From the NCBI GenBank assembly GCA_001824435.1, contig MHXH01000017.1, positions 335 to 64,334 of the forward strand: a DNA stretch of 64,000 nucleotides, given 5' to 3'. Shown here in pieces: positions 3,258-60,047 of this stretch. Position numbers and translations under genes: made by a program. Positions within the stretch are counted from its first letter, which is position 1. Each line of letters opens with the position of its first letter. The DNA is from Parcubacteria group bacterium RIFCSPLOWO2_01_FULL_48_18. GTDB lineage: Bacteria > Patescibacteriota > Minisyncoccia > UBA6257 > WO2-01-48-18. The notes beneath the pieces were generated by a model. It ran no database searches. It saw only the letters and a program-made list of their open reading frames with translations, and was not told the origin of the DNA.

Positions 3258-3344
3258 TAATCAATTATAATGGGAGTTAAGACATAATGAGGGTTACAGA
3301 TGACCTCAATGATGTATGAGTTATAATATAATCAAAGTCATCAG

Positions 3345-3388
3345 TCGTGTCAATGTTTTTACGATCGCATAAATATTGACTGATGGTT
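3345..3388. repeat. ~42-bp direct repeat, right copy, flanking the PaaX-like gene
   Basis: See 2704-2745; contains TTGACT. Confidence 0.5.
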
Positions 3389-3529
3389 GTATCAACTTAT
3401 TATTATGCAAATCGGTGGTAGTTAATGCCCTTTGCATAAATGAAGCTCCGCGCGGCAAGGGAAGTCTGACTTCCCAAGCCGCGCGGTATCAAGCGGAATT
3501 CTTACGAAACCCCGTACCATACGCAAGCT

Positions 3530-3715
3530 TAGGTACGGGGCGAAGCAACCCTTCGATCCGTTCGATTAACTCAGGTCATTCAGACTCCCTCGGGCTGTTC
3601 AGTCTCTTCGAGCCTGAGGGCTCTTCAGAGCCTGAACGGCCTGAAGACTTCACAGTACAGTCGAAGGAACTGAGTCCTCTTCGAGCCTGAAGGCTCTTCA
3701 GAGCTCCTCGAGTTC
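3530..3715. repeat. GC-rich dispersed repeat (family R1; ctcgaagag/cctgaagacttcacagtcgaaggaactgagtcct words)
   Basis: Shares long identical words with 6295-6490 (cctcgggctgttcagtc; cctgaagacttcacagt...gtcgaaggaactgagtcctc). Related copies at 5149-5274, 19130-19260 and 28070-28200. Confidence 0.7.
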
Positions 3716-3750
3716 ACCGAATCTGAATAATAATATAAGTTAATTTCAAT

Positions 3751-4227
3751 ATGATGATTAGGAGAAAAAAGTTATTTTTGGGCCTTGCGACATTCGTAGT
3801 CGTTGGGTTGCTGTTGGTAATTGCTGCAATGACCGGTCTTTTCCCATGGCACACTATAGAGCAAGCAAAAAACCAACTCTCGCTCGACTTATTAACGATA
3901 GAGGGTGTCGCTGGTGTGGGAATTGGGGACTGTGAAGGCAAGCCCTGCATCAGCGTATTACTGGAAGAAGATACTCCTGAACTACGACAAAAAATTCCCG
4001 GTGAGTTTAAGGGTTTTAAAGTGATTATAGAAACAACTGGGCCGATCACGATGGTCCCTCCACTGCGAATTTGTGATGCGCAGAATCCATGTCCGGCCGG
4101 GCAAGGATGTTATAAATTTGAAGACGAATCCCAACCGCTCTGCTGGACTCAAAACCCCTGCGAACGATGTGATTCAAAACAATGTCGCCTTGGCGAGTCT
4201 TACCCCATAGAGGTAGTGTGCCAGTAA
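3751..4227 (+). CDS. hypothetical membrane-anchored/secreted cysteine-rich protein
   Basis: N-terminal TM helix (LFLGLATFVVVGLLLVIAAM) and 10 Cys in the C-terminal 70 aa. Confidence 0.5.
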   Translation: MMIRRKKLFLGLATFVVVGLLLVIAAMTGLFPWHTIEQAKNQLSLDLLTIEGVAGVGIGDCEGKPCISVLLEEDTPELRQKIPGEFKGFKVIIETTGPITMVPPLRICDAQNPCPAGQGCYKFEDESQPLCWTQNPCERCDSKQCRLGESYPIEVVCQ

Positions 4228-4245
4228 TGGAAGAGTGACAAAAGA

Positions 4246-5463
4246 CTATAGGCTAGAATCTGATTGGGTGATTGTTTCTATGAGCGCAACTTCTAGGGGT
4301 ACGATAGGAAACGAACTGAAGTGGATGTGCGGCTGCGCATCAAGGAGCGCTTTGAGCAGTTTGGTCAAAAAGCGGATGTCGGCTCCTTCGGCCTGTTCTC
4401 TAAACCAACGCAGCTCGTCATCGCTGAAGCTTTGTCCGTACACGGCAGCAGCCTCAGGGCTGATAGCGATCGCGAGCAGCCGACGAACGTATCGCATAAG
4501 GTCTTTGTGCAGCGCGGCGATATTGGATGTTTCTTCATCCAAACGGCGAAGGTGCGCCATTATGCCCTTCGCATCTTTTTTTAAAACGGCGTCGACAAGA
4601 GCTTTAAGCTTTGCAATGTTTACTCTGCCGAGCGCCTCTTCGATTGCGGCTCCGTCGATGAGGGCGTAGCCGAACGAAGCAACTTGCTCAAGAAACGATT
4701 CTGCATCTCGAAGCGATCCTTCCGCGGCAAGGGATACAAGTCGTAGGGCTTCGTCGGTGATGGATATTGCCTCTGCGGCAGCGATCTTTTTAAGTTTTTC
4801 CACGATGTGGCTGCTGCGAAGCCTCTTAAAATCGAAACGCTGGGTGCGGGAAACAACGGTAAGCGGCAACTTATCCGGCTCGGTGGTGGCAAGAATAAAC
4901 ATGGCATGGAGCGGAGGCTCCTCCAAAAGTTTTAACAACGCATTGGCCGCGTCTTTCGTAAGCGCATGCGCTTCGTCGACAATAAATACTTTACGGCCGA
5001 GAAAGCTCGGCATCACTACCGCCGCCTCCTTCAAATTTCTAATTTCGTCGATGCCGCGGTTGGAAGCCGCATCAATTTCCACCACGTCAAGCGTCCGCCC
5101 TTCGTCAATTTGTACGCACGCAAGGCAATCATTGCACGGTTCTCCGACGCCTGCGAAGCTTTCATCCCTCAGGACTGAATCCCTTCGGTCTGAGACCTTA
5201 GGGTCGAAGACCTCGGACCGTTCGGCTCTGAGAGTCTCAGGCTCGAAGAGACGAACATCCCCGAGCCGCGTCAGACAATTGACGGCTTTTGCCAAAATCC
5301 GCGCAGCCGTGGTCTTGCCGGTACCGCGGCTGCCGCAAAAAAGATACGCATGCGCAATGCGGCCGGTCGCGGCGGCGTTTTTTAAAATCAGCGTGGTCGC
5401 TTCCTGTCCAATAATATCGGAAAATCGTCTGGGACGATATTTGCGGTATAAGGCAACTGACAT
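4246..5463 (-). CDS. dnaX: DNA polymerase III subunit gamma/tau
   Basis: MSVALYRKYRPRRFSDIIGQE, GSRGTGKTT (Walker A), FIVDEAHAL, TVVSRTQRF. Start at the conserved YRKYRP Met (5461-5463). Confidence 0.85.
   Translation of the reverse strand: MSVALYRKYRPRRFSDIIGQEATTLILKNAAATGRIAHAYLFCGSRGTGKTTAARILAKAVNCLTRLGDVRLFEPETLRAERSEVFDPKVSDRRDSVLRDESFAGVGEPCNDCLACVQIDEGRTLDVVEIDAASNRGIDEIRNLKEAAVVMPSFLGRKVFIVDEAHALTKDAANALLKLLEEPPLHAMFILATTEPDKLPLTVVSRTQRFDFKRLRSSHIVEKLKKIAAAEAISITDEALRLVSLAAEGSLRDAESFLEQVASFGYALIDGAAIEEALGRVNIAKLKALVDAVLKKDAKGIMAHLRRLDEETSNIAALHKDLMRYVRRLLAIAISPEAAAVYGQSFSDDELRWFREQAEGADIRFLTKLLKALLDAQPHIHFSSFPIVPLEVALIETITQSDSSL
5149..5274 (-). repeat. R1 repeat copy inserted in-frame in dnaX (~40-aa insertion in the zinc-module loop)
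   Basis: Between AVNC and GEPCNDCLAC the protein reads LTRLGDVRLFEPETLRAERSEVFDPKVSDRRDSVLRDESFAG. DNA matches the R1 family (ggctctgagagtctcaggctcgaagagacgaa vs 6400-6440). Confidence 0.65.
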
Positions 5464-5572
5464 GTGAGCATAAGGCTGCCAAGAAAAATTTCTCCGGCAG
5501 TTTCTTAGTCCCTTAAGGATAAAATAAAAATTGCCGCAAGGCAACTTTATGCACGCACCGGACGCCATACCC

Positions 5573-5609
5573 TTGACTATACTATCATACACTGTAGTAT
5601 AGTAGTATA
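5573..5609 (+). promoter_or_regulatory. Sigma70-like promoter (TTGACT-17/18-TAGTAT) overlapped by 34-bp palindromic operator motif, copy 1
   Basis: ttgactatactatcatacactgtagtatagtagtata. Palindrome shared with 6519-6552 and 37064-37099. Confidence 0.5.
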
Positions 5610-5680
5610 GCATAACACCCATTATTTCTATGCCAAAACTATCCAAGCATCGGCCAAGGACAGAGGTAGGAGACGCAATT

Positions 5681-6085
5681 ATGAACCAGCTCTTCCGTTC
5701 ATTGATACGCGTGCAAAACGAGAAGGAAGCGGCTGAATTCTTGAATGATTTTTTTACCCTAACCGAAAAACGAATGCTTGCAAAACGACTGGCTATTGCC
5801 GTTTTATTGCATGCGGGGGCGAACTACAAAGAGATCAACGCGCTGCTGAAGGTATCACACACAACGATCAATCGAGTTTCAAATGCCATTGCGCTGGGCG
5901 GGAAGGCGTATCAAAAAACCGCGGATGACATCATGAATGTTCTCCTGCGCCATCGGGGTTCCGCAACAACGAACAGGCGGGAAGAAAGCAAAGACATGGT
6001 GACGCTTATAAAAGATTTCTTTGACGAATGGGACAATGCGAAACTGCATAGCGTTTATCGCCCGCTCACCAAGGGATCCCGATAA
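5681..6085 (+). CDS. TrpR/YerC-YecD family DNA-binding protein
   Basis: NEKEAAEFLNDFFTLTEKRMLAKRLAIAVLL..GANYKEINALLKVSHTTINRVS matches the Trp-repressor-like fold family. Start may be the upstream Met at 5630. Confidence 0.6.
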   Translation: MNQLFRSLIRVQNEKEAAEFLNDFFTLTEKRMLAKRLAIAVLLHAGANYKEINALLKVSHTTINRVSNAIALGGKAYQKTADDIMNVLLRHRGSATTNRREESKDMVTLIKDFFDEWDNAKLHSVYRPLTKGSR

Positions 6086-6294
6086 AACAAAGAAATTTCA
6101 AAAACAAAAAACTCCAATAGGCTACAGGCCACGGAGCTTCGATATACCCAGAATCGCAATATATTCACCAGTTACAACCCGGAAGCCCCAGTCTTCTCCG
6201 CCAAACAGAACGTCCGAAAACTCCCTTTTTGAGATTTTTGGTATTTCTTTTGGCTTGTTCGCGTCGGCCAAATTGCCAAAATTCGAGTTTTCGG

Positions 6295-6490
6295 ACGGCC
6301 TGAAAGGAGGATCAACTCCTCGAGTTCATCGAATCCCTCGGGCTGTTCAGTCCTGAAGACTTCACAGTCGAAGGAACTGAGTCCTCGGGCCGTTCAGGCT
6401 CTGAGGAGCCCTCAGGCTCGAAGAGACGAATGTCTGGGATTCTCTGAATCGAATGATCTGAGTCTCGGAGTCGAAGACCCCTGGCTGAAG
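6295..6490. repeat. GC-rich dispersed repeat (family R1) copy
   Basis: Long words shared with 3530-3715 and 5149-5274. Confidence 0.7.
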
Positions 6491-6518
6491 GCCGGGTTGT
6501 AACAGGGTTCACTTTTTT

Positions 6519-6552
6519 CTACACTATCATACTACAGTGTATGATAGTGTAG
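6519..6552. promoter_or_regulatory. 34-bp palindromic operator-like motif, copy 2 (ctacactatcatactacagtgtatgatagtgtag)
   Basis: Perfect 14-bp arms, flanked by T6/A5. Near-identical to the reverse complement of copy 3. Confidence 0.5.
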
Positions 6553-6619
6553 AAAAATTAACTTTCGTCCCTCAATTTCTCGATTTATAAATCCCGTATC
6601 GAGAAACTAAACGATTCCG

Positions 6620-8020
6620 TTACTGCAGGACGAGATTGTATTTTTTAAGCGCCCATTCCCATCCCAGCGATACCGCTTCCAGCAACGCCGCCGTATTTGC
6701 TTGCGCCGAAGATATGTCGGCCAGATTCCATATTTCCGCAAAATCCAAATCCCTCCTCGCCAAACTTTCCAAATCAAACAGGTCGTCCTGAAGGGCACGG
6801 AATCGCGCGTCGGTGATGGCGTTATTGAAACGGCTAAACTCGATATACGCCTGCTGGCCGACTGAAAGCGCATCGTCAAGGCTCGCAATCGCCCTACCGT
6901 GGAACCCCGCAAGGTCGCTCGGCGGAACAACTCCCTTCCCCATGCTCACCAGCCAACCCAACGACCGGATCATGCGGCCGAAATCGTCCCAACCGGATGC
7001 ATGGGACGGCCGATGTACGGCTACCGCCGCAAGCGTGTTATGGCCGTTGACAAACTCAAGCTGCGGAGGGTTAAAATCGTCAAACTGGACAAAAAAATCA
7101 TTGAGCGCCGATAAAAAATCAAAGTAGGCAACCGTGAGCTCCGCGTCCTGCTGAATGACGCCGACCTGCTTTATGGCATCTTCAAGAATGCGACTAACGG
7201 TGATATTGCTCTGCGCCGTTTTGAAATTTTCGAGCGAACTGACGAAGGGGTCGTTCGTGGCAAGCGCGACAGAAGACTGATCTTGCGTCAGCGATTTGAG
7301 CTCGCCGAGTTTTCCCGCAAGCGTCACATACGGCCCTTCGGAAACGAACGCTTTAAATCTCCGAAACTCACCCATCCCTTCCCGGGCATACTGCTCTGAT
7401 TCACGCAAGAGCCGTACGAGACCGTCGTGAAAATCTTTCAAGCGGAACGGCACGCGGGCAATTTCCGCTTTCGTCAAAATTCTTCCCGCATTTTCCGTAA
7501 GCAGCTCGTAGGTCTGCCACACGTCTTCATATTGCGCTCCTCCCGAAACGGGATTATTCGCAAGCAATGCGCGATCGGGAGAAACCGATTGAAAAAGATT
7601 CTTCAATTCCGCCAGGAGAGAATAATAATATTCCGATTCGCTGGCAAATTCTTCTTCCAGCGTGTTTTCGGAAGCCAAGTACTGCTGGAAAACAGCCAAT
7701 GACTTACTGTGCAGCTCTTTCAGATCGCCTTTTGACGGTTTGAGCGGGAAAAATTCTTCTGCAGCCCTCTTTGCCGCTTCGCCGATCCGACCCAGGCTCG
7801 CCTCAAGCATGCCGTAAGGATCATACTGGTAATTCTCCTCCCGAGCGCCCGCCACCGCCTGCTCAAACGCATACCACGCCGGATACGCGCGCCGCAAATA
7901 CTGCTGTGGCTGATACTCATTCACATACCACAAGAAACCGCCGAAAACCAAAAAAACAACAAGCAGCACGACCAGCCACCGTACGAGAGGAACGCGAAAT
8001 ATAACGCCAAGAGGGTTCAT
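6620..8020 (-). CDS. hypothetical membrane-anchored protein (466 aa)
   Basis: N-terminal TM helix; no family recognised. Confidence 0.55.
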   Translation of the reverse strand: MNPLGVIFRVPLVRWLVVLLVVFLVFGGFLWYVNEYQPQQYLRRAYPAWYAFEQAVAGAREENYQYDPYGMLEASLGRIGEAAKRAAEEFFPLKPSKGDLKELHSKSLAVFQQYLASENTLEEEFASESEYYYSLLAELKNLFQSVSPDRALLANNPVSGGAQYEDVWQTYELLTENAGRILTKAEIARVPFRLKDFHDGLVRLLRESEQYAREGMGEFRRFKAFVSEGPYVTLAGKLGELKSLTQDQSSVALATNDPFVSSLENFKTAQSNITVSRILEDAIKQVGVIQQDAELTVAYFDFLSALNDFFVQFDDFNPPQLEFVNGHNTLAAVAVHRPSHASGWDDFGRMIRSLGWLVSMGKGVVPPSDLAGFHGRAIASLDDALSVGQQAYIEFSRFNNAITDARFRALQDDLFDLESLARRDLDFAEIWNLADISSAQANTAALLEAVSLGWEWALKKYNLVLQ

Positions 8021-8054
8021 TGCTCTATACTGTAATTATACAATAACGTGCGGG

Positions 8055-8168
8055 ATGTCAAAATGTCGAGATGTCGAGATAACAACATATCGAGACGTCG
8101 AGATATCGAGATGTCAAGACATCGAGATGTCGAGATATCGAGATATCAATATATCGAGATACCGAAAT
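8055..8168. repeat. Tandem array of ~13 octamer units (RTRTCGAG)
   Basis: atgtcgag|atgtcgag|ataacaac|atatcgag|acgtcgag|atatcgag|atgtcaag|acatcgag|atgtcgag|atatcgag|atatcaat|atatcgag|ataccgaa. Lies between the stop of 8170..10197 and the start of 6620..8020. Confidence 0.7.
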
Positions 8169-8169: not shown

Positions 8170-10197
8170 TTAGTGCCCATGCGGTTCCATTGATTCCATA
8201 ACCGCGCTCCCTGCTTCGCCCGGACCTACTTCCACCATAAAACTCGTCAGCACCGACTCTCCTTGGCGGCTGAATTGCGAAAATATCTGGTATATTCCGG
8301 GGAAAGGAAACGTCACGTGCGCTTCTATTTCCGGGCCGAATTTGTCTGAAGCATTCACCGTATGCTTTTCCGCGCGCGTTTGAGGATCGTGAATCTCTCC
8401 ATGCGTATGCAAGAAGTACGAGAGATCCGCGCTGATAATCGCCAAGTGCATCGGCGCGCCTAAATATTCTTCCAAATCAGACACTCCTTTTCCGTCTTTT
8501 TCTATTCTATACCAAATGGATGCGCTTTCTCTGGATCGCAGTCCGGCTGGAGGGGGCCGGAAGAGAACTTGATATCCGCCGAACTCTTTCACGCGCGAGA
8601 GGTCTTTGCGAAAAGTCGGCGTGCCGCGCGCTCCGACATCCACAAAGAATTGTTTGGATACCCCGTGGTTCTCGTGAAGAACATTGACCGAAACAAGATA
8701 GCGCCCTTCTTTAGGAAATGCATAGTTGACAGAAAAGGAGGCCTCGGCAAGCACACGATCGGTAACCAAGCCGAAGTCTTCAGGATGCAGATGCGCAAAC
8801 GTGGAAAAATCTTCATGCACGATAACCGCATGCAAAATGCGCTCGTGTTCGATCTGGAGGTCTTCAAGAGGATTGCCGTCGTCATCTTTGAGGTAGAATG
8901 TAAGCGTTGCTGTCTCTTCGGGGCGCGGAGAAGATGGAGTTTTGAAAAGCAACATCGCGACAGCCGGAACCGACTCTTCTATTTCCGTTTCGAGCGCCTT
9001 GTGAGACAAAAACCAGTGCGGAATCACTTGGATAAACAGAAGTGCGAGCAATACGCTTAATGAAACAGTAAACCACTTTTCAAAACGAAGAATTGCTGCC
9101 TGCGCAGGCCGATCCGCGTCGGGAAGCACGTTAATTTTCTTCTTCTCCCTTTTCCAATGCCACCACATCGGAATTATCCAGAGAGCGACAAGCACCCAAT
9201 TGCCAAGCCAGAGCGGCTGACCGAAAAGACCGGCGCCGGTCGGGGTACCGTGCGTATGAGCCCTTCCGACGTTAAGCCAATTGGCAACAAGGGTCGTAAA
9301 ACGCTCCTCCTGCGTGACTTTTTCCAAGAGAGAATGCTGGCCAGAATACACCCACCAATCATGCGTGAATAATCCCAGTACCAGAATGAATGCCGCGACA
9401 AACACCATGACCCAACCGGTTGCACGCTCAATCTTTTCTTTATGCCTCAAGAGTCCTTGCAGCGCGTTGATCCCCAAAATTCCCAGAAGCGCCAAGAGCA
9501 AAAGCGGTATGATTCTTCCGATGGCATGCACCAAAAAGAGCAGCCAGCCGTAAAATACATCGCCCGAAACCGCTATACGGGTAAGAATTACCGGCGTGGC
9601 CGGATGCGGACACCCCACCCCCACATTGCCCAAAAAAAGGCCGAGAAGAAACGCCTTGATCACGTCGGATTGCTTCTGGATAAACATGGGCGCCGCGCCG
9701 GAAAACGACGGCATACGGAAGCGGACAAGGCCGAGTTCACCCAACGCAAAGACATACGCGAACACACCCGCAACAAGATACAGCCAATTTTTTACTACCT
9801 CAAGCGGAGCGCCAAGCGTACCAATTGCAACCTCTCCCAATACTGCGGCGAGTACGCCGTAGAGGCTCAGCATAACCACAATACCGGCCCCGAATGCAAG
9901 CGCGATGGAAAATCCCTTAACCGGCCCCTTGCCCATCGAAAGCGGCACAATGACAAAAGCCAGGGGCAGCGTGCACGGCAGCACGATCATCGTGAGCCCC
10001 ATCGAAAAACTGAACAGATACCATCCGGCGCCGACCGGATTTTGCGAGCCGAGCGCAAATCCCCATATAAGCCCTCCGCCGATCACAATCAAAAACGCGA
10101 CGGCAACCAGAACCAAGATTGTCCGCGCTTTCTTTTTCTCCGGCAACGCGGCCGCAGAGGCGCTACTTAAAGAATTTGTTTCGTTATTTTCAGCCAT
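8170..10197 (-). CDS. CcdA/DsbD-family transmembrane thiol:disulfide protein fused to two C-terminal H-x-H soluble domains
   Basis: Multi-TM core with Cys motifs (LPCTLPLAF; GCPHPATPV). C-terminal repeats FAHLHPEDFG and FLHTHGEIH. Confidence 0.5.
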   Translation of the reverse strand: MAENNETNSLSSASAAALPEKKKARTILVLVAVAFLIVIGGGLIWGFALGSQNPVGAGWYLFSFSMGLTMIVLPCTLPLAFVIVPLSMGKGPVKGFSIALAFGAGIVVMLSLYGVLAAVLGEVAIGTLGAPLEVVKNWLYLVAGVFAYVFALGELGLVRFRMPSFSGAAPMFIQKQSDVIKAFLLGLFLGNVGVGCPHPATPVILTRIAVSGDVFYGWLLFLVHAIGRIIPLLLLALLGILGINALQGLLRHKEKIERATGWVMVFVAAFILVLGLFTHDWWVYSGQHSLLEKVTQEERFTTLVANWLNVGRAHTHGTPTGAGLFGQPLWLGNWVLVALWIIPMWWHWKREKKKINVLPDADRPAQAAILRFEKWFTVSLSVLLALLFIQVIPHWFLSHKALETEIEESVPAVAMLLFKTPSSPRPEETATLTFYLKDDDGNPLEDLQIEHERILHAVIVHEDFSTFAHLHPEDFGLVTDRVLAEASFSVNYAFPKEGRYLVSVNVLHENHGVSKQFFVDVGARGTPTFRKDLSRVKEFGGYQVLFRPPPAGLRSRESASIWYRIEKDGKGVSDLEEYLGAPMHLAIISADLSYFLHTHGEIHDPQTRAEKHTVNASDKFGPEIEAHVTFPFPGIYQIFSQFSRQGESVLTSFMVEVGPGEAGSAVMESMEPHGH

Positions 10198-22455: not shown

Positions 22456-23898
22456 TTAATTTTTCTTTGATTGCTTTAAGCCCGGCTTCTTGCTCTGCTT
22501 CAGTTGAACCCCTAACTCATTCAGCTGTTTTTTGTCTACTGCTGCCGGTGCGGCCATCAACAAATCCCTGCCGTCGCCGGTCTTCGGGAATGCAATCACT
22601 TCTCTTATATTAGGTTCATTCTGAAGAATCATCAAGATTCGGTCAATGCCCGGCGCAATGCCGCCGTGCGGCGGGACGCCGTATGAAAACGCTTCGAGTA
22701 GATGGCCGAATTTTTCTTCGACGCCCCCTTGGGTATGTCCCATCACTTTAAAAACATCGGCAAGGAGGTCCGGTTCGTGCGTTCGAATGCTTCCTCCTCC
22801 GACTTCATAGCCATTGCATACAAAATCGTACTGATGCGCGAGGACATTTCTTGTATCGTCGCGAAGGCGCGCTCGTAACTCGTCTACGCTTTCTTCTCCA
22901 AGCTGCTGTGGCCGCGTAAAGGGATGATGCGTCGCATCCCACCGCCGCTCTTTTTCTTTCCACTCAAACATCGGAAAATCGACTACGAACGCGAACGCAA
23001 GCTCATCAGGATTATTCTTGTCGCGACGCAAATCCGGCTTGTCGGTGCCGTATTTCTCTATTACCTCCCGATACGACAGCCGCACGAAAGGCTTAAAGGT
23101 AAAATGTTTCTGGGGATATACTGTTTCCACCAACGAAGTGAACAGTTCTTCCACAAGTTGCAATATCTCTTCTTGGCTGACAAAGCTCATCTCTACGTCA
23201 AGCTGGGTAAATTCCGGCTGTCGATCTCCACGCGTGTCCTCATCGCGGAAACATCGCGCAATCTGAAAATACCTCTCAATGCCGGCAACCATGAGGAGCT
23301 GTTTATATTGCTGGGGCGATTGCGGAAGAGCGTAGAATGTTCCCGGATGCAGGCGCGCAGGAACCAGGTAATCGCGCGCGCCCTCCGGGGTAGACTTGCC
23401 CAAAATGGGAGTTTCAATTTCTATAAAACGGCGCTGCGACAAAAAATTCCGTATAAACTGGATTGCCCGATGCCGCATTATAAGGTTCTGCTTCATTCGC
23501 TCGCGCCGCAAATCTATATACCGATATTTCATGCGAAGATCTTCGCCAATTTCGGTTCCGTTTGTATCAACTGCGATCGGCGGCGTTTTCGCCTCTGCCA
23601 AAATTTGAAGTTCGTCCGCAGGAATTTCAAAATCGCCGCTCACGATATTCGGATTCTCCATTCCCTTCGGCCTGCGCTGGACAATTCCCGATATTCGTAT
23701 CACCCACTCGCCCCGCAGCCTGCTTGCGGACTCATAAACTTCTTTATTCTTGGGAAAAAACACGATCTGGGCCACGCCCGTCCTATCACGCAAATCAATA
23801 AAAATAAGCTTGCCGTGGTCACGGCGACTGCCAACCCAGCCGAACAGCTCCACTTTCTTCCCTTCGTTTTTAGAAATTTCGTCTATCCAGGTACGCAT
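22456..23898 (-). CDS. aspS: aspartate--tRNA ligase (compact form)
   Basis: FIDLRDRTG, class II motifs FRDED.R.DRQPEFTQLD and GGGSIR, GIAPGIDR. Start at MRTWIDE; the upstream part of the ORF-track ORF is repeat-derived. Confidence 0.9.
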   Translation of the reverse strand: MRTWIDEISKNEGKKVELFGWVGSRRDHGKLIFIDLRDRTGVAQIVFFPKNKEVYESASRLRGEWVIRISGIVQRRPKGMENPNIVSGDFEIPADELQILAEAKTPPIAVDTNGTEIGEDLRMKYRYIDLRRERMKQNLIMRHRAIQFIRNFLSQRRFIEIETPILGKSTPEGARDYLVPARLHPGTFYALPQSPQQYKQLLMVAGIERYFQIARCFRDEDTRGDRQPEFTQLDVEMSFVSQEEILQLVEELFTSLVETVYPQKHFTFKPFVRLSYREVIEKYGTDKPDLRRDKNNPDELAFAFVVDFPMFEWKEKERRWDATHHPFTRPQQLGEESVDELRARLRDDTRNVLAHQYDFVCNGYEVGGGSIRTHEPDLLADVFKVMGHTQGGVEEKFGHLLEAFSYGVPPHGGIAPGIDRILMILQNEPNIREVIAFPKTGDGRDLLMAAPAAVDKKQLNELGVQLKQSKKPGLKQSKKN

Positions 23899-23935
23899 AG
23901 AACTAGAATCTGGAATCTGGAAGTGATTATTTATG
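23895..23935. repeat. Heptamer array (AGAATCT/AATCTGG type) directly upstream of the aspS start
   Basis: gaactag|aatctgg|aatctgg|aag. Confidence 0.55.
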
Positions 23936-25784: not shown

Positions 25785-25835
25785 GGAACGGGCCTAGAAT
25801 CTAGAATCTAAATTCCAGATTCTAGATTTTGGCAT
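25785..25835. repeat. Inverted heptamer arrays (ctagaat x2 / attctag) between the two comEC parts; contains the stop codon of the upstream part
   Basis: cctagaatctagaatctaaattccagattctagatttt. TAG stop of 25822..27306 lies within ctagatt. Confidence 0.6.
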
Positions 25836-27306
25836 CCCGCGGATAGTATTTTTTTATAAAAACCGCTGCCAGGATATAATAGACGGCAACAAAAAACGGG
25901 CTGAGATGTTCTACGACAAGAGGCAGGCTCACTGTTCCGCTGGCATTGATTAACCATGTTTCATAGGCAAGCGGCAGATACGCGACCCAGCCGAATACGG
26001 TCGAGAGCGTGGTCGAAACATATCCGGCCAGGCCCGTAACAAACCCCAAAAACATGGTAAGCGGAATCAATTCAAGAATAAGAATGTTGGTAAAAAACGA
26101 GATGGGCGAAAAACTGCCGAAATTGCCAAAGACAACAGGGATTACCATCAGTTGCGCGCTCAATGTCGTAAGTCCATGTTCGCGCCACGAAAGAAGCGTC
26201 GGCGCATTCGGTATATGAAATCGCTCTTGTATCGCGGGCATAAGATACACAATGCCGAGGAGCGCCAAAAACGAAAGCTGAAAACCGGCGTCATACCGCA
26301 GTACCTGCGGATTTACGAGAACCATCGCAAATGCCGCGACCATAATCGCATTTCTGATGCTGTGGATCTTGCCAATATAACCCGCCAGAAGAAGGATGCT
26401 CCCCATGATTGCCGCGCGCACCACCGAGGCTTGCGCGCCGGTCATCACCACAAAGGCGATGATGACCGCAACCGAAATCCAGAATGACGGTTTTTTCCCC
26501 AGTCCTATAATAAGCAAAAAATTTGCGATCGACCAGGCAATAATTGAAATATTGTAGCCGGATAATGCGACTAAGTGCGTGGTTCCGGAAAGCTTCATGT
26601 TCTCCTTAAACTTGGCTGAAAATTCAGCCCGTTCACCAAGCAGCAAGCCGTTCATAAACGCCGCCTCGTGCACGGGAAGAGCGCGGCCGATTTTTTCCTC
26701 AAAACTGTTTTTTATCCGATACAGCGCCGCTTTGATCGGAGACTGCGTACTCCGCGCCAGAAGTTTTGCATCAGGATAATACACAATCCCGTAAATCCGG
26801 TCTTTCCCAAGATAATCGGCATAAGCTCTCGGCTCCGGTTTTTGGATGACTCCCTTCAGTTCAACCACATCTCCGTATGCATATGCCGGATACTTTACCG
26901 TGCGCATCAACACTCTTCCTCCGTAAGGCTTCTTGTGTAACTCCAGTATGGCTGTCTGCGTATCCGGGCCTTGCGTCGGATCGGCGATGACTATCGCGGT
27001 AACCGATAAGATACGACCCATGGGCGCCGAAAAGGAATTGCGAGAAACGGATGCGTATCCGGAGGCGTACGCCGCTCCTAATATCGAGGCACAAAGAAGA
27101 ATCGAGAAAAAAAGAAATTTCATGCGGGGCGACTCTCCAATCGATGAAAATGTCGCTGGCAAACCGATATATGGCAGAGAGAATAATACGACAGCGGCCA
27201 AAAGCGCCGCCAGTGCCGCAATCCAAAAATTACCGGCGTATGCAAATAACCCGACTCCTATCAAAAACGAAAGCATCGCATAAAACGCGGTGTCAGATAC
27301 GTGCAT
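25822..27306 (-). CDS. comEC: ComEC/Rec2 N-terminal and competence transmembrane domain protein
   Basis: Polytopic membrane protein with competence-domain-like TM block (GTTHLVALSGYNISII...). Confidence 0.75.
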   Translation of the reverse strand: MHVSDTAFYAMLSFLIGVGLFAYAGNFWIAALAALLAAVVLFSLPYIGLPATFSSIGESPRMKFLFFSILLCASILGAAYASGYASVSRNSFSAPMGRILSVTAIVIADPTQGPDTQTAILELHKKPYGGRVLMRTVKYPAYAYGDVVELKGVIQKPEPRAYADYLGKDRIYGIVYYPDAKLLARSTQSPIKAALYRIKNSFEEKIGRALPVHEAAFMNGLLLGERAEFSAKFKENMKLSGTTHLVALSGYNISIIAWSIANFLLIIGLGKKPSFWISVAVIIAFVVMTGAQASVVRAAIMGSILLLAGYIGKIHSIRNAIMVAAFAMVLVNPQVLRYDAGFQLSFLALLGIVYLMPAIQERFHIPNAPTLLSWREHGLTTLSAQLMVIPVVFGNFGSFSPISFFTNILILELIPLTMFLGFVTGLAGYVSTTLSTVFGWVAYLPLAYETWLINASGTVSLPLVVEHLSPFFVAVYYILAAVFIKKYYPRDAKI

Positions 27307-34605: not shown

Positions 34606-35493
34606 TCACTTTACCGCATGTCCGCCAAACATATTTCTGAGCGCCGAGAGAACTTTTCCGGTATACGTCGGTTTATCATTCGATTGGACGCGAAATTGAA
34701 ATGCGCCTTCGATAATCGGCACGGGCACGCCCAGTTCATTCGCGATTTTAACGGTCCACTCTCCTTCACCGGTGTGGCCGACGGCCCCTGAAATAGATTC
34801 CAATTCAATGCCGTACTTTTCATAGGCACCTTCTAGCCAGCCAACGAGCCGCGATTCTATGACGCTCCGATGATTATACAAATCCGCAACTTTTTTCAAA
34901 TCCAATTGAAAATCGGATTTTTTCAACAGCCCAAATCCTTCGGCTAATGCCTGCATCATGCCATACTCGATGCCGTTGTGCGCCATTTTCACGAAATGAC
35001 CGGCTCCTGCTTTCCCCACATATGCATACGCGTTCTCCGCGGCAATATCTTTAAACAGGGATTCAAATTTTTTAAATGTTTCCTCCTTTCCGCCAACCAT
35101 CACGCACGCGCCGGTGCGCGCACCCGATGGCCCGCCACTCACTCCTACGTCCAAAAAATCAATCCCCTTCTTTTCCAATTCTCTGGCACGACGAACAGAA
35201 TCTTTATAAAACGAATTTCCCCCATCGATAATCGCGTCATTAGCTTGCAGGTGCGGGGACAATTCATTCAATACTTCGTCCACTACTGCATGCGGCACCA
35301 TGAGCCAGATGAGGCGGGGCGCGGTCAATTGAGCAGCCATGCCTACAAGCGAAAATGACGCGCTGGCGCCGAATCGAACCGCTTCCTGTGTCAATTCGGG
35401 AGACCGATCGTATACAGAAATTTCATAGCCGCGTCCACGCAACCGCTCCACCATATTCAATCCCATTTTCCCAAGTCCTATATATCCGAGTCG
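34606..35493 (-). CDS. gnd: 6-phosphogluconate dehydrogenase (decarboxylating), short NAD-binding form
   Basis: MRLGYIGLGKMGLNM, GDAIIDGGNS, GVSGG. ORF-track N-terminal extension is repeat-derived. Confidence 0.85.
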   Translation of the reverse strand, partial: RLGYIGLGKMGLNMVERLRGRGYEISVYDRSPELTQEAVRFGASASFSLVGMAAQLTAPRLIWLMVPHAVVDEVLNELSPHLQANDAIIDGGNSFYKDSVRRARELEKKGIDFLDVGVSGGPSGARTGACVMVGGKEETFKKFESLFKDIAAENAYAYVGKAGAGHFVKMAHNGIEYGMMQALAEGFGLLKKSDFQLDLKKVADLYNHRSVIESRLVGWLEGAYEKYGIELESISGAVGHTGEGEWTVKIANELGVPVPIIEGAFQFRVQSNDKPTYTGKVLSALRNMFGGHAVK

Positions 35494-35593
35494 CATGATT
35501 GGAATATAGAATTTAGAATCTAGAATTTGGAATACCAGCTTCCATGTTCTCAACTTCGGTAAATCCCAGATTCCAGATTCTAAATTCTAGATT
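35494..35593. repeat. Inverted heptamer arrays (tagaat x4 ... cagatt/ctagatt x5) between the zwf stop and the gnd start
   Basis: atagaat|ttagaat|ctagaat|ttggaat ... cccagat|tccagat|tctaaat|tctagat|tctaaac. Confidence 0.65.
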
Positions 35594-37030
35594 CTAAACA
35601 ATAGGTCCTGCGCTTCCCGGCTCATACACCAGAAGCGGCACTTCATTATTTTTCCACCCATCAAGGACGCTGTCAATGAATTTCCAACTTGCCATCACCT
35701 CTTCCGTGCTCGCAAATAACGTCTGATCTCCAGAGATACAATCAAGCAGAATTTTCTCGTATGCATCTACGAGTTCGCCGTTTTTCTCGATGCCAGAATA
35801 GTTGAGCGCCAGGGGGCGCTCTTCAAGTTCCATGGCGACGCCCGGGCGCTTTGTCCAAAACGATACCGCAACCTCCTGATTAGGCTGAAGCTGGAAATAC
35901 AACACATTCTGCACGTGGCGGTCCGGCGGACACAAACAAGGATCGACATGTTTGAACGTAACAAATGTCTCTACTACGGATCGATTGAGCCGCTTGCCGC
36001 TTTCAAGATTAAAAGGAACTCCTTCCCAACGAGGATTATCAATAAAAGCTGCCAAGCGAAAATATGTTTCTGTCTTCGAGTCTGGTGACACGCCACCCTC
36101 TTGGCGATAACCGATATATTGCGCCCTTCGCGTATCTCTTTTAAGCTGATCGCGCGAAACAGGTCGAAGCGCATACAGTGCGGCTGCCCGCGCTTTTCTG
36201 ATCTCGCTTGCGACAAATACGGCAGGCCGCTCCATGGCAATGAGAGCGAGCATTTGCAGCATATGATTTTGGCCCACGTCACGAAGCGTTCCGACACGAT
36301 CGTAAAATGCTCCTCTTTCTTCGACTCCGGCTTCTTCAAGCATTTTGATTTCAACCTTTTCGATGGCGCGCCCGTCCCACGAAGATTCAAAAATAGAATT
36401 TGAAAATCTCAATGCCAGGATATTTTGCACCGATTCCTTGGCCAAGTAATGATCGATGCGAAAAACTTGTTCCTCCTTGAACAATTTCCCGAGCATGGCG
36501 TCGAGCCGTTCTGCGGTTTTCAAATCGCTGCCGAACGGTTTTTCCACCAACACGCGAGTCCATCCGGTCTCATCGCTGCACGGCTTCGTTAAACCGGAAT
36601 TCGCCAGATGAGTAAAAATCTCCTCATAGAATTGCGGCGGGACGGCAAGATAAAATAATTTGTTTGAACACATTCCCCATGCTTCGTCTATCGACTCAAG
36701 GTTTCTCGCAAGCGCCGCATAACTGTTCGAATCGGAAAAATTACCTCGTTGATATCTCCACAACTCGGCAAAAGATTCAAAGTCCTTTTTTACGATCCCC
36801 GCCATCCCACCCGAAAAATTTACGGCCATGGAGCGAAAACCATTATCGCCCAGATCCTTCCGCGCAAAGCCGACAATCGCGCATTTATCGGGAAGCCAAC
36901 CGCGATTCCATAAATGAAACAATGCCGGAGTCAATTTTTTCTTCATGAGATCTCCGGTAGCGCCGAATATGGTAAGAACGGTTGGGGCGTTAAAATTTTT
37001 CTTATGGGGCATGTTCATATTATAATTCAT
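35594..37030 (-). CDS. zwf: glucose-6-phosphate 1-dehydrogenase
   Basis: IFGATGDL, RIDHYLAKE, EKPFG. Confidence 0.9.
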   Translation of the reverse strand: MNYNMNMPHKKNFNAPTVLTIFGATGDLMKKKLTPALFHLWNRGWLPDKCAIVGFARKDLGDNGFRSMAVNFSGGMAGIVKKDFESFAELWRYQRGNFSDSNSYAALARNLESIDEAWGMCSNKLFYLAVPPQFYEEIFTHLANSGLTKPCSDETGWTRVLVEKPFGSDLKTAERLDAMLGKLFKEEQVFRIDHYLAKESVQNILALRFSNSIFESSWDGRAIEKVEIKMLEEAGVEERGAFYDRVGTLRDVGQNHMLQMLALIAMERPAVFVASEIRKARAAALYALRPVSRDQLKRDTRRAQYIGYRQEGGVSPDSKTETYFRLAAFIDNPRWEGVPFNLESGKRLNRSVVETFVTFKHVDPCLCPPDRHVQNVLYFQLQPNQEVAVSFWTKRPGVAMELEERPLALNYSGIEKNGELVDAYEKILLDCISGDQTLFASTEEVMASWKFIDSVLDGWKNNEVPLLVYEPGSAGPIV

Positions 37031-37063: not shown

Positions 37064-37099
37064 CTACATACTATCATACACTGTAGTATGATAGTGTAG
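37064..37099. promoter_or_regulatory. 34-bp palindromic operator-like motif, copy 3, upstream of zwf-gnd
   Basis: ctacatactatcatacactgtagtatgatagtgtag. Reverse complement equals copy 2 apart from a 3-nt indel. Confidence 0.5.
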
Positions 37100-37168: not shown

Positions 37169-37200
37169 GAGCCCGGTGCCTATAGAAGCACACCGGGCTC
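37169..37200 (-). terminator. Hairpin terminator downstream of the island gene 37245..38498
   Basis: gagcccggtg-cctatagaag-caccgggctc, then a U-rich run on the minus strand. Confidence 0.5.
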
Positions 37201-37244
37201 ACTCGTTGGGAGAGGATCAACTGCCTCCTTCCCGAGAAAGACGT

Positions 37245-58469: not shown

Positions 58470-58579
58470 CAACATCAAATCAATAATATATGCTCAACAA
58501 TGCAAAACAGCGGAATGTCCGCTGTTTTCGCTTCTAAAAACCTTTTTCATAATCCCGCACTAATTTTCTGCAATAGTAT

Positions 58580-58695
58580 CCCGGCGAATCCTACTTTCCC
58601 CGGCCACCGAAGCAGCGAGTATCATCAGAGTTTGACGCTTTCACTTCCGTGTTCGGAATGAGAACGGGTGGGTCACGCCAAACTAAATCACCGGG
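58580..58695 (-). rRNA. rrf: 5S ribosomal RNA
   Basis: Minus strand reads cccggtgatttagtttggcgtgacccacccgttctcattccgaacacggaagtgaaagcg...gattcgccggg. Conserved CCCACC..CCGAAC.CGGAAGU core and a terminal helix. Confidence 0.7.
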
Positions 58696-58812
58696 AAGCT
58701 GCTGCAGAAAATTTAGTGCGGGAGGGAGGGATGGGACACACATGACTTAACCGCTGGGAAGTCCAAAATTTTAAGCGGGGCGGGGTCGGAATAAAATGAG
58801 GTGATACCCGCC

Positions 58813-59112
58813 TCAAACTCCATATTCTGCCTGCCTCAAGCTTAAAAGCTCCTCCTCCGCTTCTCTTTTCTTCTTCGATAGTTGATCTAACAGATCGCTT
58901 TCCGCGTCAGTAGCTATTTGAACAAGCTTAAATTCCGTATCCGATATGTCTCCGAATAGGGATTCAAGATTTTGTTTATTCCCTGCAAGCCGCGACAGGT
59001 CGGCAGCAATCAGCTCACGTGCACGCGCAACGACTTGAGCCAATTCTTCGCTTACATATTCTTCATCCGGCAAATGGGCCGGGCGATGTGGTTCACGCAT
59101 TTCTCGACTCAT
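58813..59112 (-). CDS. hypothetical coiled-coil protein (99 aa) in the 23S-5S spacer
   Basis: ORF track only; unusual location. Confidence 0.3.
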   Translation of the reverse strand: MSREMREPHRPAHLPDEEYVSEELAQVVARARELIAADLSRLAGNKQNLESLFGDISDTEFKLVQIATDAESDLLDQLSKKKREAEEELLSLRQAEYGV

Positions 59113-59811: not shown

Positions 59812-59945
59812 GAATTTCTAATTCCTAATTTCTAATGACTAATCAAATCCAGATTTCGAAATCCCAATAACCAAAATATTAGAAATTGGCCATTTGGGCA
59901 TTGAAACATTGATTAGGAATTAGGTCAATTAGAAATTAGACATTT
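59812..59945. repeat. AT-rich heptamer-array element (aatttct/attagaa units) inserted in the 3'-terminal variable helix of 23S
   Basis: Shares attaggtcaattagaaatt with the copy at 63303-63418. rRNA homology resumes on both sides. Confidence 0.6.
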
Positions 59946-60013
59946 CCGGTGCGAAGCACTGGTTTTTACGTGGTAGTCTTCCACGATCCTCAAACGATAC
60001 CTTATCTTAGGGG

Positions 60014-60047
<34 letters not shown>

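What the first reader, a model, noticed from the sequence alone, without database searches (positions are those of the whole stretch)
5573..6552. TrpR/YerC-like regulator flanked by a 34-bp palindrome that recurs upstream of zwf-gnd
A perfect palindrome (ctacactatcatac-N6-gtatgatagtgtag and close variants) overlaps the promoter of the TrpR/YerC-family gene (5578-5609) and recurs just downstream of it (6519-6552). A third copy lies in the zwf upstream region (37064-37099, 34 bp from the zwf start). This suggests an autoregulated local repressor controlling the oxidative pentose-phosphate genes and possibly the divergent 6620..8020 membrane protein.
Basis: inference. Interest (0 to 1): 0.6.

Follow-up and report, generated by a model that had tools for sequence, protein, structure and literature searches.

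The report
Pan-CPR palindrome flanking TrpR-like regulator
The three palindromes are real. They belong to a 26-bp DNA site conserved across many lineages of the ultra-small CPR (Patescibacteria) bacteria, and this site brackets the gene of a small TrpR/YerC-type DNA-binding protein on both sides. It is most likely that protein's own binding site, not a dedicated switch for the pentose-phosphate genes.

Summary
Observation confirmed. There are three copies, at 5577-5611, 6519-6552 and 37064-37099, against none expected by chance. The window comes from a Parcubacteria (CPR) genome.

The core ACTATCATACT-N4-AGTATGATAGT matched 87 loci among species-representative genomes, about 81 of them CPR of many classes. 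Wherever a YerC/TrpR-like gene lay next to a site, it was flanked by the palindrome on both sides (15 of 15 complete loci, plus this window). Four family members from Microgenomates lack this motif. Each is flanked on both sides by a different repeat that overlaps a clear promoter. So protein and site travel together and change together.

Best reading: an autoregulated TrpR-family DNA-binding protein with a few extra sites per genome.

The zwf link is specific to this genome. No zwf or gnd lies in the 87 loci, and four other CPR zwf loci carry no site. The 6620-8020 gene is convergent, not divergent.

A plain operator does not explain several features:
- mirror-symmetric substitutions and complementary flanks
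- a centre that is specific to each genome
- in-frame copies inside genes
- an excess of sites in convergent over divergent spacers

Binding, repression and ligand are inferred, not shown.

The parts
5577..5611 (.). Palindrome copy 1. The core is 5581-5606 with 3 mismatches to the pan-CPR consensus, and the flanks are CTAT/ATAG. It lies between dnaX (divergent, start 5463) and the regulator gene (start 5630).
5573..5600 (+). Sigma-70-like promoter match TTGACT-16-TAGTAT overlapping copy 1 and pointing at the regulator gene. It is a consensus match only.
5609..5636 (-). Divergent promoter-like match TTGGCA-16-TATGCT with an upstream TG. It abuts copy 1 and points towards dnaX. It is a consensus match only.
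5630..6085 (+). Gene of a 151-aa YerC/YecD-type TrpR-family protein. It has the TrpR fold plus a basic N-terminal arm and an extra C-terminal helix.
6090..6518 (-). A non-coding, strongly structured stretch of about 420 nt inserted between the regulator's stop codon and copy 2. On the minus strand it begins about 7 nt after copy 2 and ends in an intrinsic terminator. It is a possible ncRNA target of copy 2.
6519..6552 (.). Palindrome copy 2. It is perfect, with a core at 6523-6548 that extends to 6514-6557. It marks the downstream end of the regulator cassette and lies 67 nt beyond the 3' end of the convergent gene 6620-8020.
37064..37099 (.). Palindrome copy 3 (core 37070-37095). It lies 33 nt upstream of the zwf start and downstream of a terminator-like hairpin at about 37170-37205 that ends the preceding gene.
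35594..37030 (-). zwf (glucose-6-phosphate dehydrogenase), a candidate target in this genome only.
34606..35553 (-). gnd (short 6-phosphogluconate dehydrogenase). It lies downstream of zwf and is separated from it by a long inverted repeat.

Best explanation
The 26-bp core ACTATCATACT-N4-AGTATGATAGT (34-36 bp with its flanks in this genome) is the cognate DNA site of the 151-aa YerC/TrpR-family protein encoded at 5630-6085.

The protein has the TrpR fold and is therefore presumably a dimer. A 26-bp site may take two dimers. It binds the copy that overlaps its own promoter, and a divergent promoter-like element facing dnaX, and so limits its own synthesis.

The second copy, at the other end of the gene, is part of a conserved cassette of site, gene, site. 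It probably serves the next promoter where there is one. Otherwise it may act as a roadblock or insulator, or as a looping partner.

A few further copies per genome put other transcription units under the same protein. In this genome these are the copy 33 nt upstream of zwf (zwf-gnd) and probably an unannotated structured RNA of about 420 nt read leftwards from copy 2.

Shown here:
- the sites and their non-randomness
- the cassette architecture across CPR
- clade-specific co-variation of protein and flanking repeat
- the TrpR fold

Inferred:
- binding itself
- the sign of regulation (repression)
- the ligand (TrpR and HisR use amino acids)
- any effect on zwf
For: - **Non-random sites.** Three sites against 0 expected.
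- **Spread.** The pattern matched 87 loci in 185,579 species genomes, about 81 of them CPR from at least 9 named candidate groups. About 17 or fewer matches are expected under uniform base composition, and 6 matches look like chance.
- **Enrichment.** Trp_repressor is the only Pfam family enriched among neighbouring genes: 11 of 59 genes whose 5' end faces a site and 8 of 85 whose 3' end does.
- **Cassette.** A family HMM finds the gene directly adjacent to the site in 16 loci. With a degenerate scan the gene is flanked on both sides in 15 of 15 complete loci. The upstream site ends between 8 nt inside the longest-ORF start call and 35 nt before it, apart from one nt away that is probably too short. 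The downstream site lies -17 to +26 nt from the stop.
- **One cassette per genome.** In 6 of 7 genomes with at least 3 motif loci, one of those loci is the cassette.
- **Reciprocal test.** Four family members chosen without regard to the motif (L091-L094; one is named Levyibacteriota by its source and the family names are Microgenomates groups) lack the motif. Each is bracketed on both sides by another repeat (core AATGATTTAAATCATT). In three of the four, its upstream copy overlaps TTGACA-17/18-TAAAAT or TTGACA-17-TATCAT just before the ATG.
- **Position.** Many sites lie 5-35 nt upstream of start codons with no Shine-Dalgarno sequence. In the window, promoter-like hexamers overlap copies 1 and 2.
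- **Selection on the DNA.** In two Uhrbacteria species, 37 nt including the palindrome are 100% conserved inside an otherwise unalignable stretch. Sites are strongly intergenic: 15 of 107 lie inside called genes against 87% coding sequence, p = 1.5e-66.
- **Fold.** The AlphaFold2 model has pLDDT 88. The best PDB matches are the YerC/HisR-type TrpR-like proteins 3G1C, 3KOR and 3FRW, followed by E. coli TrpR.
- **Family precedent.** TrpR and HisR bind roughly 20-bp palindromes (PMC9413887). From my own knowledge, not checked here: the E. coli trp operator overlaps the -10 box and TrpR represses its own gene.
Against: - **No conserved regulon.** Only the regulator's own gene recurs. Other neighbours are heterogeneous, with a few shared pairs: RelA/SpoT, CofD/YvcK, agmatine deiminase and PurM-like.
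- **zwf is not a conserved target**.
- **Spacer bias.** Sites outside cassette loci favour convergent over divergent spacers, 13 to 1, against a background of 62 to 50 (p = 0.005). This is the opposite of what promoter operators should show.
- **Downstream copy without a promoter.** In 5 of 15 cassettes, and in this window, the downstream copy faces a convergent gene, so it cannot serve a downstream promoter.
- **Copies inside genes.** Copies lie in frame inside real genes and look like insertions: TsaC (9 aa), DegT (2 copies), the GT4 linker and MiaB.
- **Symmetry a dimer does not require.** These features are mirror-symmetric double substitutions, site-specific complementary flanks and a genome-specific centre.
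- **No experiment.** Promoter calls are consensus matches only.
Confidence: 0.55

Rival explanations
1. Selfish or mobile palindromic element. The palindromes are a small family of short repeats that spread by copy-and-paste, like REP/REPIN or Rickettsia palindromic elements. The cassette of site, gene, site is the master copy, and the TrpR-like protein is the element's own DNA-binding factor. Regulatory effects such as that on zwf would be incidental.
For: - Copies lie in frame inside genes and coincide with insertions relative to homologues. In L069 TsaC the palindrome encodes 9 extra residues; others are in L027 DegT, L022 MiaB and L009/L083 GT4.
- The 6-nt centre is shared by nearly all copies within a genome and differs between genomes. 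Asymmetric centres occur in both orientations.
- Sites are in excess in convergent 'safe-haven' spacers and nearly absent from divergent ones.
- Neighbouring genes are heterogeneous.
- The gene is always bracketed by the repeat, as RAYT genes are by REPs.
- In a relative (L089), the 34-bp element is identical to window copy 2 inside otherwise dissimilar DNA.
Against: - The protein has no catalytic domain. It is a TrpR fold plus one helix.
- Only about 3-8 copies were seen per genome.
- The arms are nearly invariant across CPR classes while the proteins have diverged to 20-35% identity. This looks like long vertical co-inheritance under selection, not turnover.
- Sites are conserved at orthologous positions in different species.
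- No cassette was found on viral contigs.
- No recombinase or transposase family appears among the 25 Pfam families listed for neighbouring genes.
Confidence: 0.2
2. Protein-bound boundary element. The protein bound to its sites acts mainly as a roadblock or insulator that stops read-through, or replication forks as Tus/Ter and RTP/Ter do, at the ends of transcription units in these compact genomes. Flanking its own gene isolates that gene.
For: - Sites sit in very short spacers, typically 2-40 nt after a stop codon.
- Convergent spacers are enriched and divergent ones depleted.
- The downstream cassette copy is kept even when the next gene is convergent.
- The few-sites-per-genome pattern, with the protein's gene next to a site, matches what I recall of tus/TerB and rtp/TerI-II (my own knowledge, not checked here).
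Against: - The sites are symmetric, so they would not be polar.
- Many sites also sit 5-35 nt before start codons, where a promoter is needed.
- In the Microgenomates variant the site overlaps a clear -10 box.
- At zwf a separate terminator-like hairpin already follows the upstream gene.
- There is no positional information relative to the replication origin or terminus.
Confidence: 0.12
3. RNA-level hairpin. The palindrome acts in the transcript as a terminator, a processing site or a stability element.
For: - Stem-preserving covariation: 74% of cells paired against 66.5% in shuffles, with 0 of 500 shuffles as high.
- The terminator scan flags copies 2 and 3.
- Sites lie close to stop codons.
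Against: - There is no sense-strand G.U excess over A.C: 12 versus 11 in the core and 32 versus 21 in the flanks (p = 0.17).
- In many genomes the symmetry runs through the centre (TCTAGA, TAGCTA, TACGTA), which a loop does not need.
- T-runs follow the stem in only some sites, and the reverse polarity (T before, A after) is equally common, as in window copy 2.
- An RNA role does not explain the link with a helix-turn-helix protein.
Confidence: 0.06
4. Site-specific recombination sites of the lox/FRT/dif type: 10-11-bp inverted arms around a 4-6-bp spacer that must match between partners. The regulator gene would then be an invertible or excisable cassette.
For: - The anatomy is arm-spacer-arm.
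- The spacer is identical within a genome and differs between genomes, and it occurs in both orientations.
- The inner arm bases CATAC/GTATG resemble CATAA/TTATG of dif (recalled from memory, not tested).
- The cassette is flanked by two sites.
Against: - No recombinase family appears among the 25 Pfam families listed for neighbouring genes.
- Several active sites on one chromosome would cause deletions and inversions.
- Many centres are themselves palindromic, so they give no directionality.
- The cassette showed no rearrangement among four samples of this strain.
Confidence: 0.04

Closest known systems
HisR (YerC of Bacillus subtilis and its orthologues), the histidine repressor of Firmicutes (PMC9413887)
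   Same: Both belong to the same NCBIfam family, TIGR02531 YerC/YecD, and the window protein scores above the cut-off. The best structural matches (3KOR, 3G1C, 3FRW) are HisR-type proteins. Both are small TrpR-fold proteins with a palindromic operator.
   Different: HisR is under 100 aa, and its motif is cacTTTAnnnnnnTAAAgtg in front of his and yuiF genes. The CPR protein is about 150 aa, with an N-terminal basic arm and an extra C-terminal helix. Its site is a different 26-bp palindrome, it is not linked to his genes, and the site brackets the gene on both sides.
E. coli TrpR and the trp, aroH and trpR operators
   Same: Both have the TrpR fold. Both show autoregulation through a palindromic operator that overlaps the -10 region. 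The ACTA/TAGT elements recall the ACTAG boxes of trpO. TrpR can bind as tandem dimers.
   Different: The window protein scores 27 bits against a cut-off of 67 for the TrpR equivalog. There are no trp or aro targets. The site is 26 bp with outer boxes about two helical turns apart. The cassette carries a site on both sides.
HrcA/CIRCE and ParB/parS, examples of protein-site pairs conserved across phyla
   Same: Both involve a palindromic site kept almost unchanged over very large phylogenetic distances, with few copies per genome and one copy next to the protein's own gene.
   Different: CIRCE has a conserved core regulon (groE, dnaK) and parS sites cluster near the origin. Here no conserved target other than the regulator gene itself was found.
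Lambda CI with OR and OL; Tus/TerB; RTP/TerI-II
   Same: In each case the gene of the DNA-binding protein is bracketed by, or adjacent to, its own sites. This allows autoregulation, looping or a roadblock.
   Different: None of these proteins is homologous. Ter sites are polar, whereas these sites are symmetric.
REP/RAYT (REPIN) systems and Rickettsia palindromic elements
   Same: Both involve short palindromic repeats dispersed in intergenic DNA, especially at 3' ends. A gene is flanked by two repeats, as in RAYT systems. In-frame copies occur inside protein-coding genes, as with Rickettsia palindromic elements.
   Different: There is no HUH or other transposase domain. Copies number in single digits rather than tens to hundreds. 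The repeat sequence is conserved across phyla instead of being lineage-specific.

Membership tests
TrpR superfamily / YerC-YecD family (Pfam PF01371, NCBIfam TIGR02531) | Sequence match above the curated cut-offs | tested here: met
   PF01371 scores 58.6 bits against a cut-off of 27. TIGR02531 scores 52.4 bits against a cut-off of 42.2.
TrpR superfamily / YerC-YecD family (Pfam PF01371, NCBIfam TIGR02531) | Six-helix TrpR fold with helix-turn-helix helices D and E | tested here: met
   The AlphaFold2 model has pLDDT 88, with helices at 11-26, 31-41, 44-61, 66-73, 77-88 and 92-108 plus an extra helix at 116-137. Foldseek's top 41 PDB hits are all TrpR-like or TrpR.
TrpR superfamily / YerC-YecD family (Pfam PF01371, NCBIfam TIGR02531) | Intertwined homodimer that binds a palindromic operator | not testable with these tools
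   Only a monomer model was made. A palindromic site adjacent to the gene is consistent with a dimer.
HisR (histidine repressor, YerC orthologues) | Operator consensus cacTTTAnnnnnnTAAAgtg in front of his biosynthesis or transport genes | tested here: not met
   The site here is ACTATCATACT-N4-AGTATGATAGT. No his genes appear among the 25 Pfam families listed for neighbouring genes. The HisR motif is taken from PMC9413887.
TrpR equivalog (tryptophan repressor proper) | Score above the TIGR01321 cut-off, and trp or aro targets | tested here: not met
   The score is 27.1 bits against a cut-off of 67.25. No trp or aro genes lie next to sites.
Autoregulated repressor with operator at its own promoter | Site overlaps the core promoter of the regulator gene | tested here: inconclusive
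   In the window, TTGACT-16-TAGTAT overlaps copy 1. In three of the four Microgenomates-type loci (L091, L093, L094) TTGACA-17/18-TAAAAT or TTGACA-17-TATCAT overlaps the repeat; no clear -35 was seen in L092. There are no transcription-start data.
   No zwf or gnd lies in the 87 motif loci. No site, and not even a half-site upstream, occurs at 4 CPR zwf loci including the closest homologue at 64% identity.
REP/RAYT-type mobile palindromes | Associated HUH (Y1) transposase, and tens to hundreds of copies | tested here: not met
   The flanked gene is a helix-turn-helix protein without a catalytic domain. At most 3-8 copies were seen per genome. Whole genomes were not scanned.
REP/RAYT-type mobile palindromes | Gene bracketed by the repeats, and dispersed copies at 3' ends | tested here: met
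   15 of 15 cassettes are bracketed. Convergent versus divergent spacers stand at 13 to 1.
Intrinsic (Rho-independent) terminator | G+C-rich stem followed by a U-tract on the transcribed strand | tested here: not met
   The stem is A+T-rich. T-runs are inconsistent, and window copy 2 has T before and A after the stem. There is no sense-strand G.U bias.
Known RNA families (Rfam 15) | Covariance-model match at the sites or in the adjacent non-coding DNA | tested here: not met
   Only rRNA and tRNA matches were found. Nothing matched in 3300-6600 even at E <= 1.

The most novel reading that the evidence does not exclude
The palindrome and its TrpR-like protein form a self-propagating unit of a kind not yet described. 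In this reading a short palindromic DNA element is held almost invariant across the CPR radiation. It spreads within genomes by copy-and-paste, including in frame into protein-coding genes. It keeps itself symmetric at the DNA level, through cruciform formation or template switching. It carries only a helix-turn-helix binding protein rather than a transposase, and hosts have co-opted copies as promoter or operator modules, for example at zwf.
Probability: 0.2. Interest if true: 0.8.

Novelty: new variant of a known kind. Interest (0 to 1): 0.6.

Why it matters
Almost nothing is known about transcription control in CPR/Patescibacteria, which are mostly uncultured and have tiny genomes with few regulators. 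A protein-site pair conserved across many CPR classes (Parcubacteria, Saccharibacteria, Doudna-, Uhr-, Berkel-, Moran- and Falkowbacteria, with a variant site in Microgenomates) gives a concrete, testable entry point. The protein is small and should be easy to express, and the site is a defined 26-34-bp oligonucleotide. Saccharibacteria that can be grown in co-culture could be checked for the cassette.

The system also poses a question in sequence evolution. It is unclear why copies of one binding site carry a genome-specific centre, mirror-symmetric substitutions and complementary flanks, and why some sit in frame inside genes.

For annotation, the practical message is that the 'YerC/YecD family TrpR-related protein' of CPR genomes should not be equated with the histidine repressor HisR.

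Tried and rejected
- **Chance.** Rejected, with 0 of 100 shuffles matching.
- **A repeat private to this genome.** Rejected by the scan of species genomes.
- **HisR or TrpR orthology.** The motif and the targets do not fit, and the TrpR equivalog score is below its cut-off.
- **Conserved zwf regulon.** Rejected.
- **tRNA or known ncRNA next to sites in convergent spacers.** None is positioned to be driven by a site.
- **Known RNA family for 6090-6518 or 3380-3725.** None was found even at E <= 1.
- **RNA-hairpin selection.** The test of G.U against A.C on the sense strand gave no signal.
- **Phage association.** Four weak viral hits were found, none with a family gene.
- **Arm hexamer TATGAT as the -10 box.** This remains possible but is not supported. 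In four lineages the arm facing the regulator gene is the variant TATCG(T/A) in some loci and the consensus in others.
- It was rerun with database proteins only. The search for related loci with the family alignment failed for lack of a conserved stretch.
- **The rest of this organism's genome.** The metagenome scan with the window-specific 20-mer returned only three loci and none from this organism. A true genome-wide count for this genome could therefore not be made.
- **Literature.** Searches for the motif, and for CPR together with Trp repressor, found nothing relevant.
Full report
**1. The observation**

The window comes from Parcubacteria group bacterium RIFCSPLOWO2_01_FULL_48_18, a CPR bacterium.

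- Copy 2 (6519-6552) is a perfect 14+6+14 palindrome. Its T/A flanks extend it to 19-bp arms.
- Copy 3 (37064-37099) is the same with a 2-nt bulge.
- Copy 1 (5577-5611) has a degenerate right arm.

A mismatch-tolerant search finds only these three, against none in 100 shuffles. Copies 2 and 3 are 100% complementary over 30 nt, including the asymmetric centre.

The gene at 5630-6085 is a YerC/YecD-type TrpR-family protein: Pfam 6.7e-16, and TIGR02531 above its cut-off. Its homologues are about 148 aa and share the N-terminus MPxxSK, so ATG 5630 is the start. zwf and gnd are confirmed. The 466-aa gene 6620-8020 is on the minus strand and ends at 6620. It is therefore convergent with the regulator gene, not divergent.

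**2. The site is conserved across CPR**

I scanned one genome per species (185,579 species) with ACTATCATAC-N6-GTAT-NN-TAGT, a pattern that all three window copies satisfy. It returned 87 loci. About 17 or fewer matches are expected under uniform base composition. Six loci look like chance matches: archaeal, Firmicutes and Deltaproteobacteria records with non-consensus free positions.

The other roughly 81 loci are Patescibacteria of many groups: Parcubacteria/Paceibacteria, Saccharibacteria, Doudna-, Uhr-, Berkel-, Moran-, Falkow- and Taylorbacteria, and Spechtbacterales. The free positions show a consensus of ACTATCATACT-N4-AGTATGATAGT. Several genomes contribute 3-8 sites on different contigs.

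**3. The site and the TrpR-like gene form a cassette**

Among the genes next to sites, Trp_repressor is the only enriched Pfam family. A family HMM finds such a gene directly next to the site in 16 loci.

A degenerate scan then shows a copy on both sides of the gene in all 15 loci not cut by a contig end. The upstream copy ends between 8 nt inside the longest-ORF start call and 35 nt before it (one outlier at 196 nt, where the start call is probably too short). The downstream copy lies -17 to +26 nt from the stop codon. The window has the same layout. The one difference is a non-coding stretch of about 430 nt between the stop codon (6085) and copy 2. In 6 of 7 genomes with at least three motif loci, one of those loci is the cassette.

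One is named Levyibacteriota by its source, and the named members of this family are Microgenomates groups. They lack the motif. Each is again bracketed on both sides by another repeat, with core AATGATTTAAATCATT (a related TTGATATATATCA core in L094). In three of the four, the upstream copy overlaps a textbook TTGACA-17/18-TAAAAT or TTGACA-17-TATCAT promoter just before the ATG. In all four, the downstream copy lies upstream of the next co-directional gene.

Protein and flanking repeat thus travel together and change together. This is the strongest available argument that the protein recognises the repeat.

**4. The protein**

The AlphaFold2 model is confident (pLDDT 88). It shows the six TrpR helices plus a C-terminal helix. 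Foldseek's best PDB hits are the HisR-type TrpR-like proteins 3G1C, 3KOR and 3FRW (target-normalised TM-score about 0.8), followed by E. coli TrpR.

YerC of Bacillus subtilis is the histidine repressor HisR, with the operator cacTTTAnnnnnnTAAAgtg (PMC9413887). The CPR proteins are longer, have a different site and show no link to his genes. They are a separate subfamily, not HisR orthologues. No paper in the library mentions the motif or a CPR TrpR-like regulon.

**5. What the other copies sit next to**

Sites are overwhelmingly intergenic: 15 of 107 lie inside called genes against 87% coding sequence, p = 1.5e-66. They sit in very short spacers, and many are 5-35 nt upstream of a start codon with no Shine-Dalgarno sequence.

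The downstream genes are heterogeneous. A few recur in different lineages:
- RelA/SpoT, in a Parcubacterium and a Saccharibacterium
- CofD/YvcK
- agmatine deiminase
- a PurM-like protein

No zwf or gnd lies in any of the 87 loci. Four other CPR zwf loci, including the nearest homologue at 64% identity, have no site. A relative that shares the window's centre and flanks (L088, L089) has sites next to GlnA-like, HtrA-like, Fe-S and Fmt genes and short non-coding stretches. The zwf link is therefore specific to this genome.

Two orthologous comparisons show selection on the DNA itself. In a poorly conserved linker of a GT4 glycosyltransferase in two Uhrbacteria, 37 nt including the palindrome are identical. 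Between a Taylorbacterium and a Parcubacterium, the right arm and the next 45 nt are nearly identical.

**6. Features a simple operator does not explain**

- **(a) Spacer class.** Outside cassette loci, sites lie in convergent rather than divergent spacers 13 to 1, against a background of 62 to 50 (p = 0.005). In 5 of 15 cassettes and in this window, the downstream copy faces a convergent gene.
- **(b) Copies inside genes.** Several copies lie in frame inside real genes and coincide with insertions relative to solved homologues. These are TsaC (the palindrome encodes 9 extra residues), DegT (two copies 63 bp apart), a MiaB linker, a GT4 linker and Ig-repeat surface proteins.
- **(c) Genome-specific centre.** The 6-nt centre is nearly constant within a genome and differs between genomes. 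It is often itself palindromic. When it is asymmetric, as with ACTGTA here, it occurs in both orientations.
- **(d) Mirror symmetry.** Individual sites carry mirror-symmetric double substitutions. Their flanks are complementary beyond the core, by 3.0 bp on average against 0.35 in controls. On the 108-site alignment, 74% of cells are paired against 66.5% in shuffles, with 0 of 500 shuffles as high. Within-genome shuffles give 216 against 183.8 ± 7.9.
- **(e) No RNA-strand signal.** There is no sense-strand G.U bias: 12 versus 11 in the core. The symmetry is therefore at the DNA level, not a property of an RNA hairpin.

Possible causes are template-switch symmetrisation of a strong palindrome, cruciform formation, contacts by more than one dimer, or copy-and-paste spread. 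I could not tell these apart.

**7. Reading for this window**

Copy 1 lies between two divergent promoter-like sites. TTGACT-16-TAGTAT points towards the regulator gene, and TTGGCA-16-TATGCT points towards dnaX. It most likely mediates autoregulation.

Copy 2 is the conserved downstream end of the cassette. On the minus strand it is followed after about 7 nt by a closed, strongly structured region of about 420 nt (z = -4.2) that ends in an intrinsic terminator. In sibling strains one internal helix of this region is replaced by a different short hairpin. In the same strains the aligned part of dnaX, the regulator gene and the palindromes are unchanged. That pattern suits a structured RNA. Rfam has no match. 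Copy 2 may therefore control an unannotated RNA rather than the 466-aa gene.

Copy 3 lies 33 nt upstream of zwf and downstream of a terminator-like hairpin. Control of zwf-gnd is plausible but rests on position alone.

**8. Verdict**

It is partly wrong on three counts: the system is not local, it is not a conserved pentose-phosphate regulator, and one gene's orientation was misread.

The finding is a new subfamily and variant of a known kind, a TrpR-family protein with a palindromic site. Three traits are unusual: cross-class conservation of the site, an obligatory two-sided cassette, and repeat-like behaviour of the copies.

My confidence by claim:
- the protein binds the palindrome: about 0.85
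- it autoregulates: about 0.7
- it controls zwf here: about 0.5
- the whole best explanation as stated: 0.55

Noticed in passing
window 6090-6518 (minus strand): A non-coding region of about 420 nt with a closed fold (z = -4.2). It starts about 7 nt after palindrome copy 2 and ends in an intrinsic terminator (stem plus U-run) at about 6135-6095. Rfam has no match. In sibling strains (L100, L101) the helix at 6210-6308 is swapped for a short hairpin, GAGGTACAGTACTGTACCTC, and the few substitutions cluster in this region. It is probably an undescribed structured RNA.
   Followed up: partly
window 3602-3649, 3677-3704, 6380-6427 and 5206-5261 (inside dnaX): A module of about 50 nt (CTCTTCGAGCCTGAGGGCTCTTCAGAGCCTGAACGG...) is repeated in two non-coding regions. 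It also occurs in frame inside dnaX, where the Pfam match to DNA_pol3_delta2 is split by about 45 extra residues within the zinc-module region. This looks like a second family of repeats that can sit inside genes.
   Followed up: partly
window 3380-3725: Another non-coding, hairpin-rich stretch between a PaaX_M-domain gene and a 158-aa ORF. Its hairpin CCCCGTACCATACGCAAGCTTAGGTACGGGG recurs next to both palindromes of the related locus L088, at about 6210-6240 and 10120-10160.
   Followed up: partly
window 8046-8165; also 1005-1029, 1707-1762, 2036-2093: Arrays of an 8-bp unit (TCGAGATA / ATTTCGAY), up to about 15 tandem copies, lie in the spacer upstream of the 466-aa gene and at two other places. 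Their function is unknown.
   Followed up: no
window 58578-64000: The 23S rRNA (62697-64000, cut by the window end) and the 5S rRNA (58578-58696) are about 4 kb apart. The interval holds two LAGLIDADG_2 homing-endonuclease ORFs (61010-61591 and 61941-62573). These are intron-type insertions, as is common in CPR rRNA genes.
   Followed up: partly
window 35496-35600: A long inverted repeat (38-nt arms, 84% complementary) built from GAATCTAGAATTT-like units lies between the zwf stop codon and the gnd start. Related units occur at 25795-25844 and 23890-23921.
   Followed up: no
L021 70-220 and L044 3814-3902; L027 2477-2565: Palindrome copies occur in tandem with a 62-63-bp period. There are three copies at a contig edge in one genome, and two copies inside a DegT aminotransferase gene in another.
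   Followed up: no
L075 4385-4430 and L079 1135-1180: The 45 nt directly after the palindrome are almost identical between a Taylorbacterium and Parcubacteria GW2011_GWC2_48_17. They lie upstream of a small, very basic ORF and secA. This may be a conserved leader or a small RNA.
   Followed up: partly
window 5527-5548 (minus strand): A terminator-like hairpin with a T-run (AAAGTTGCCTTGCGGCAATTTTTATTTT) lies between palindrome copy 1 and the dnaX start. A leftward transcript from copy 1 would meet it before reaching dnaX.
   Followed up: no
P0271-P0388: Most close CPR homologues of the window's Zwf are fused Zwf-Gnd proteins of about 790 aa. In this window zwf and gnd are separate genes.
   Followed up: no
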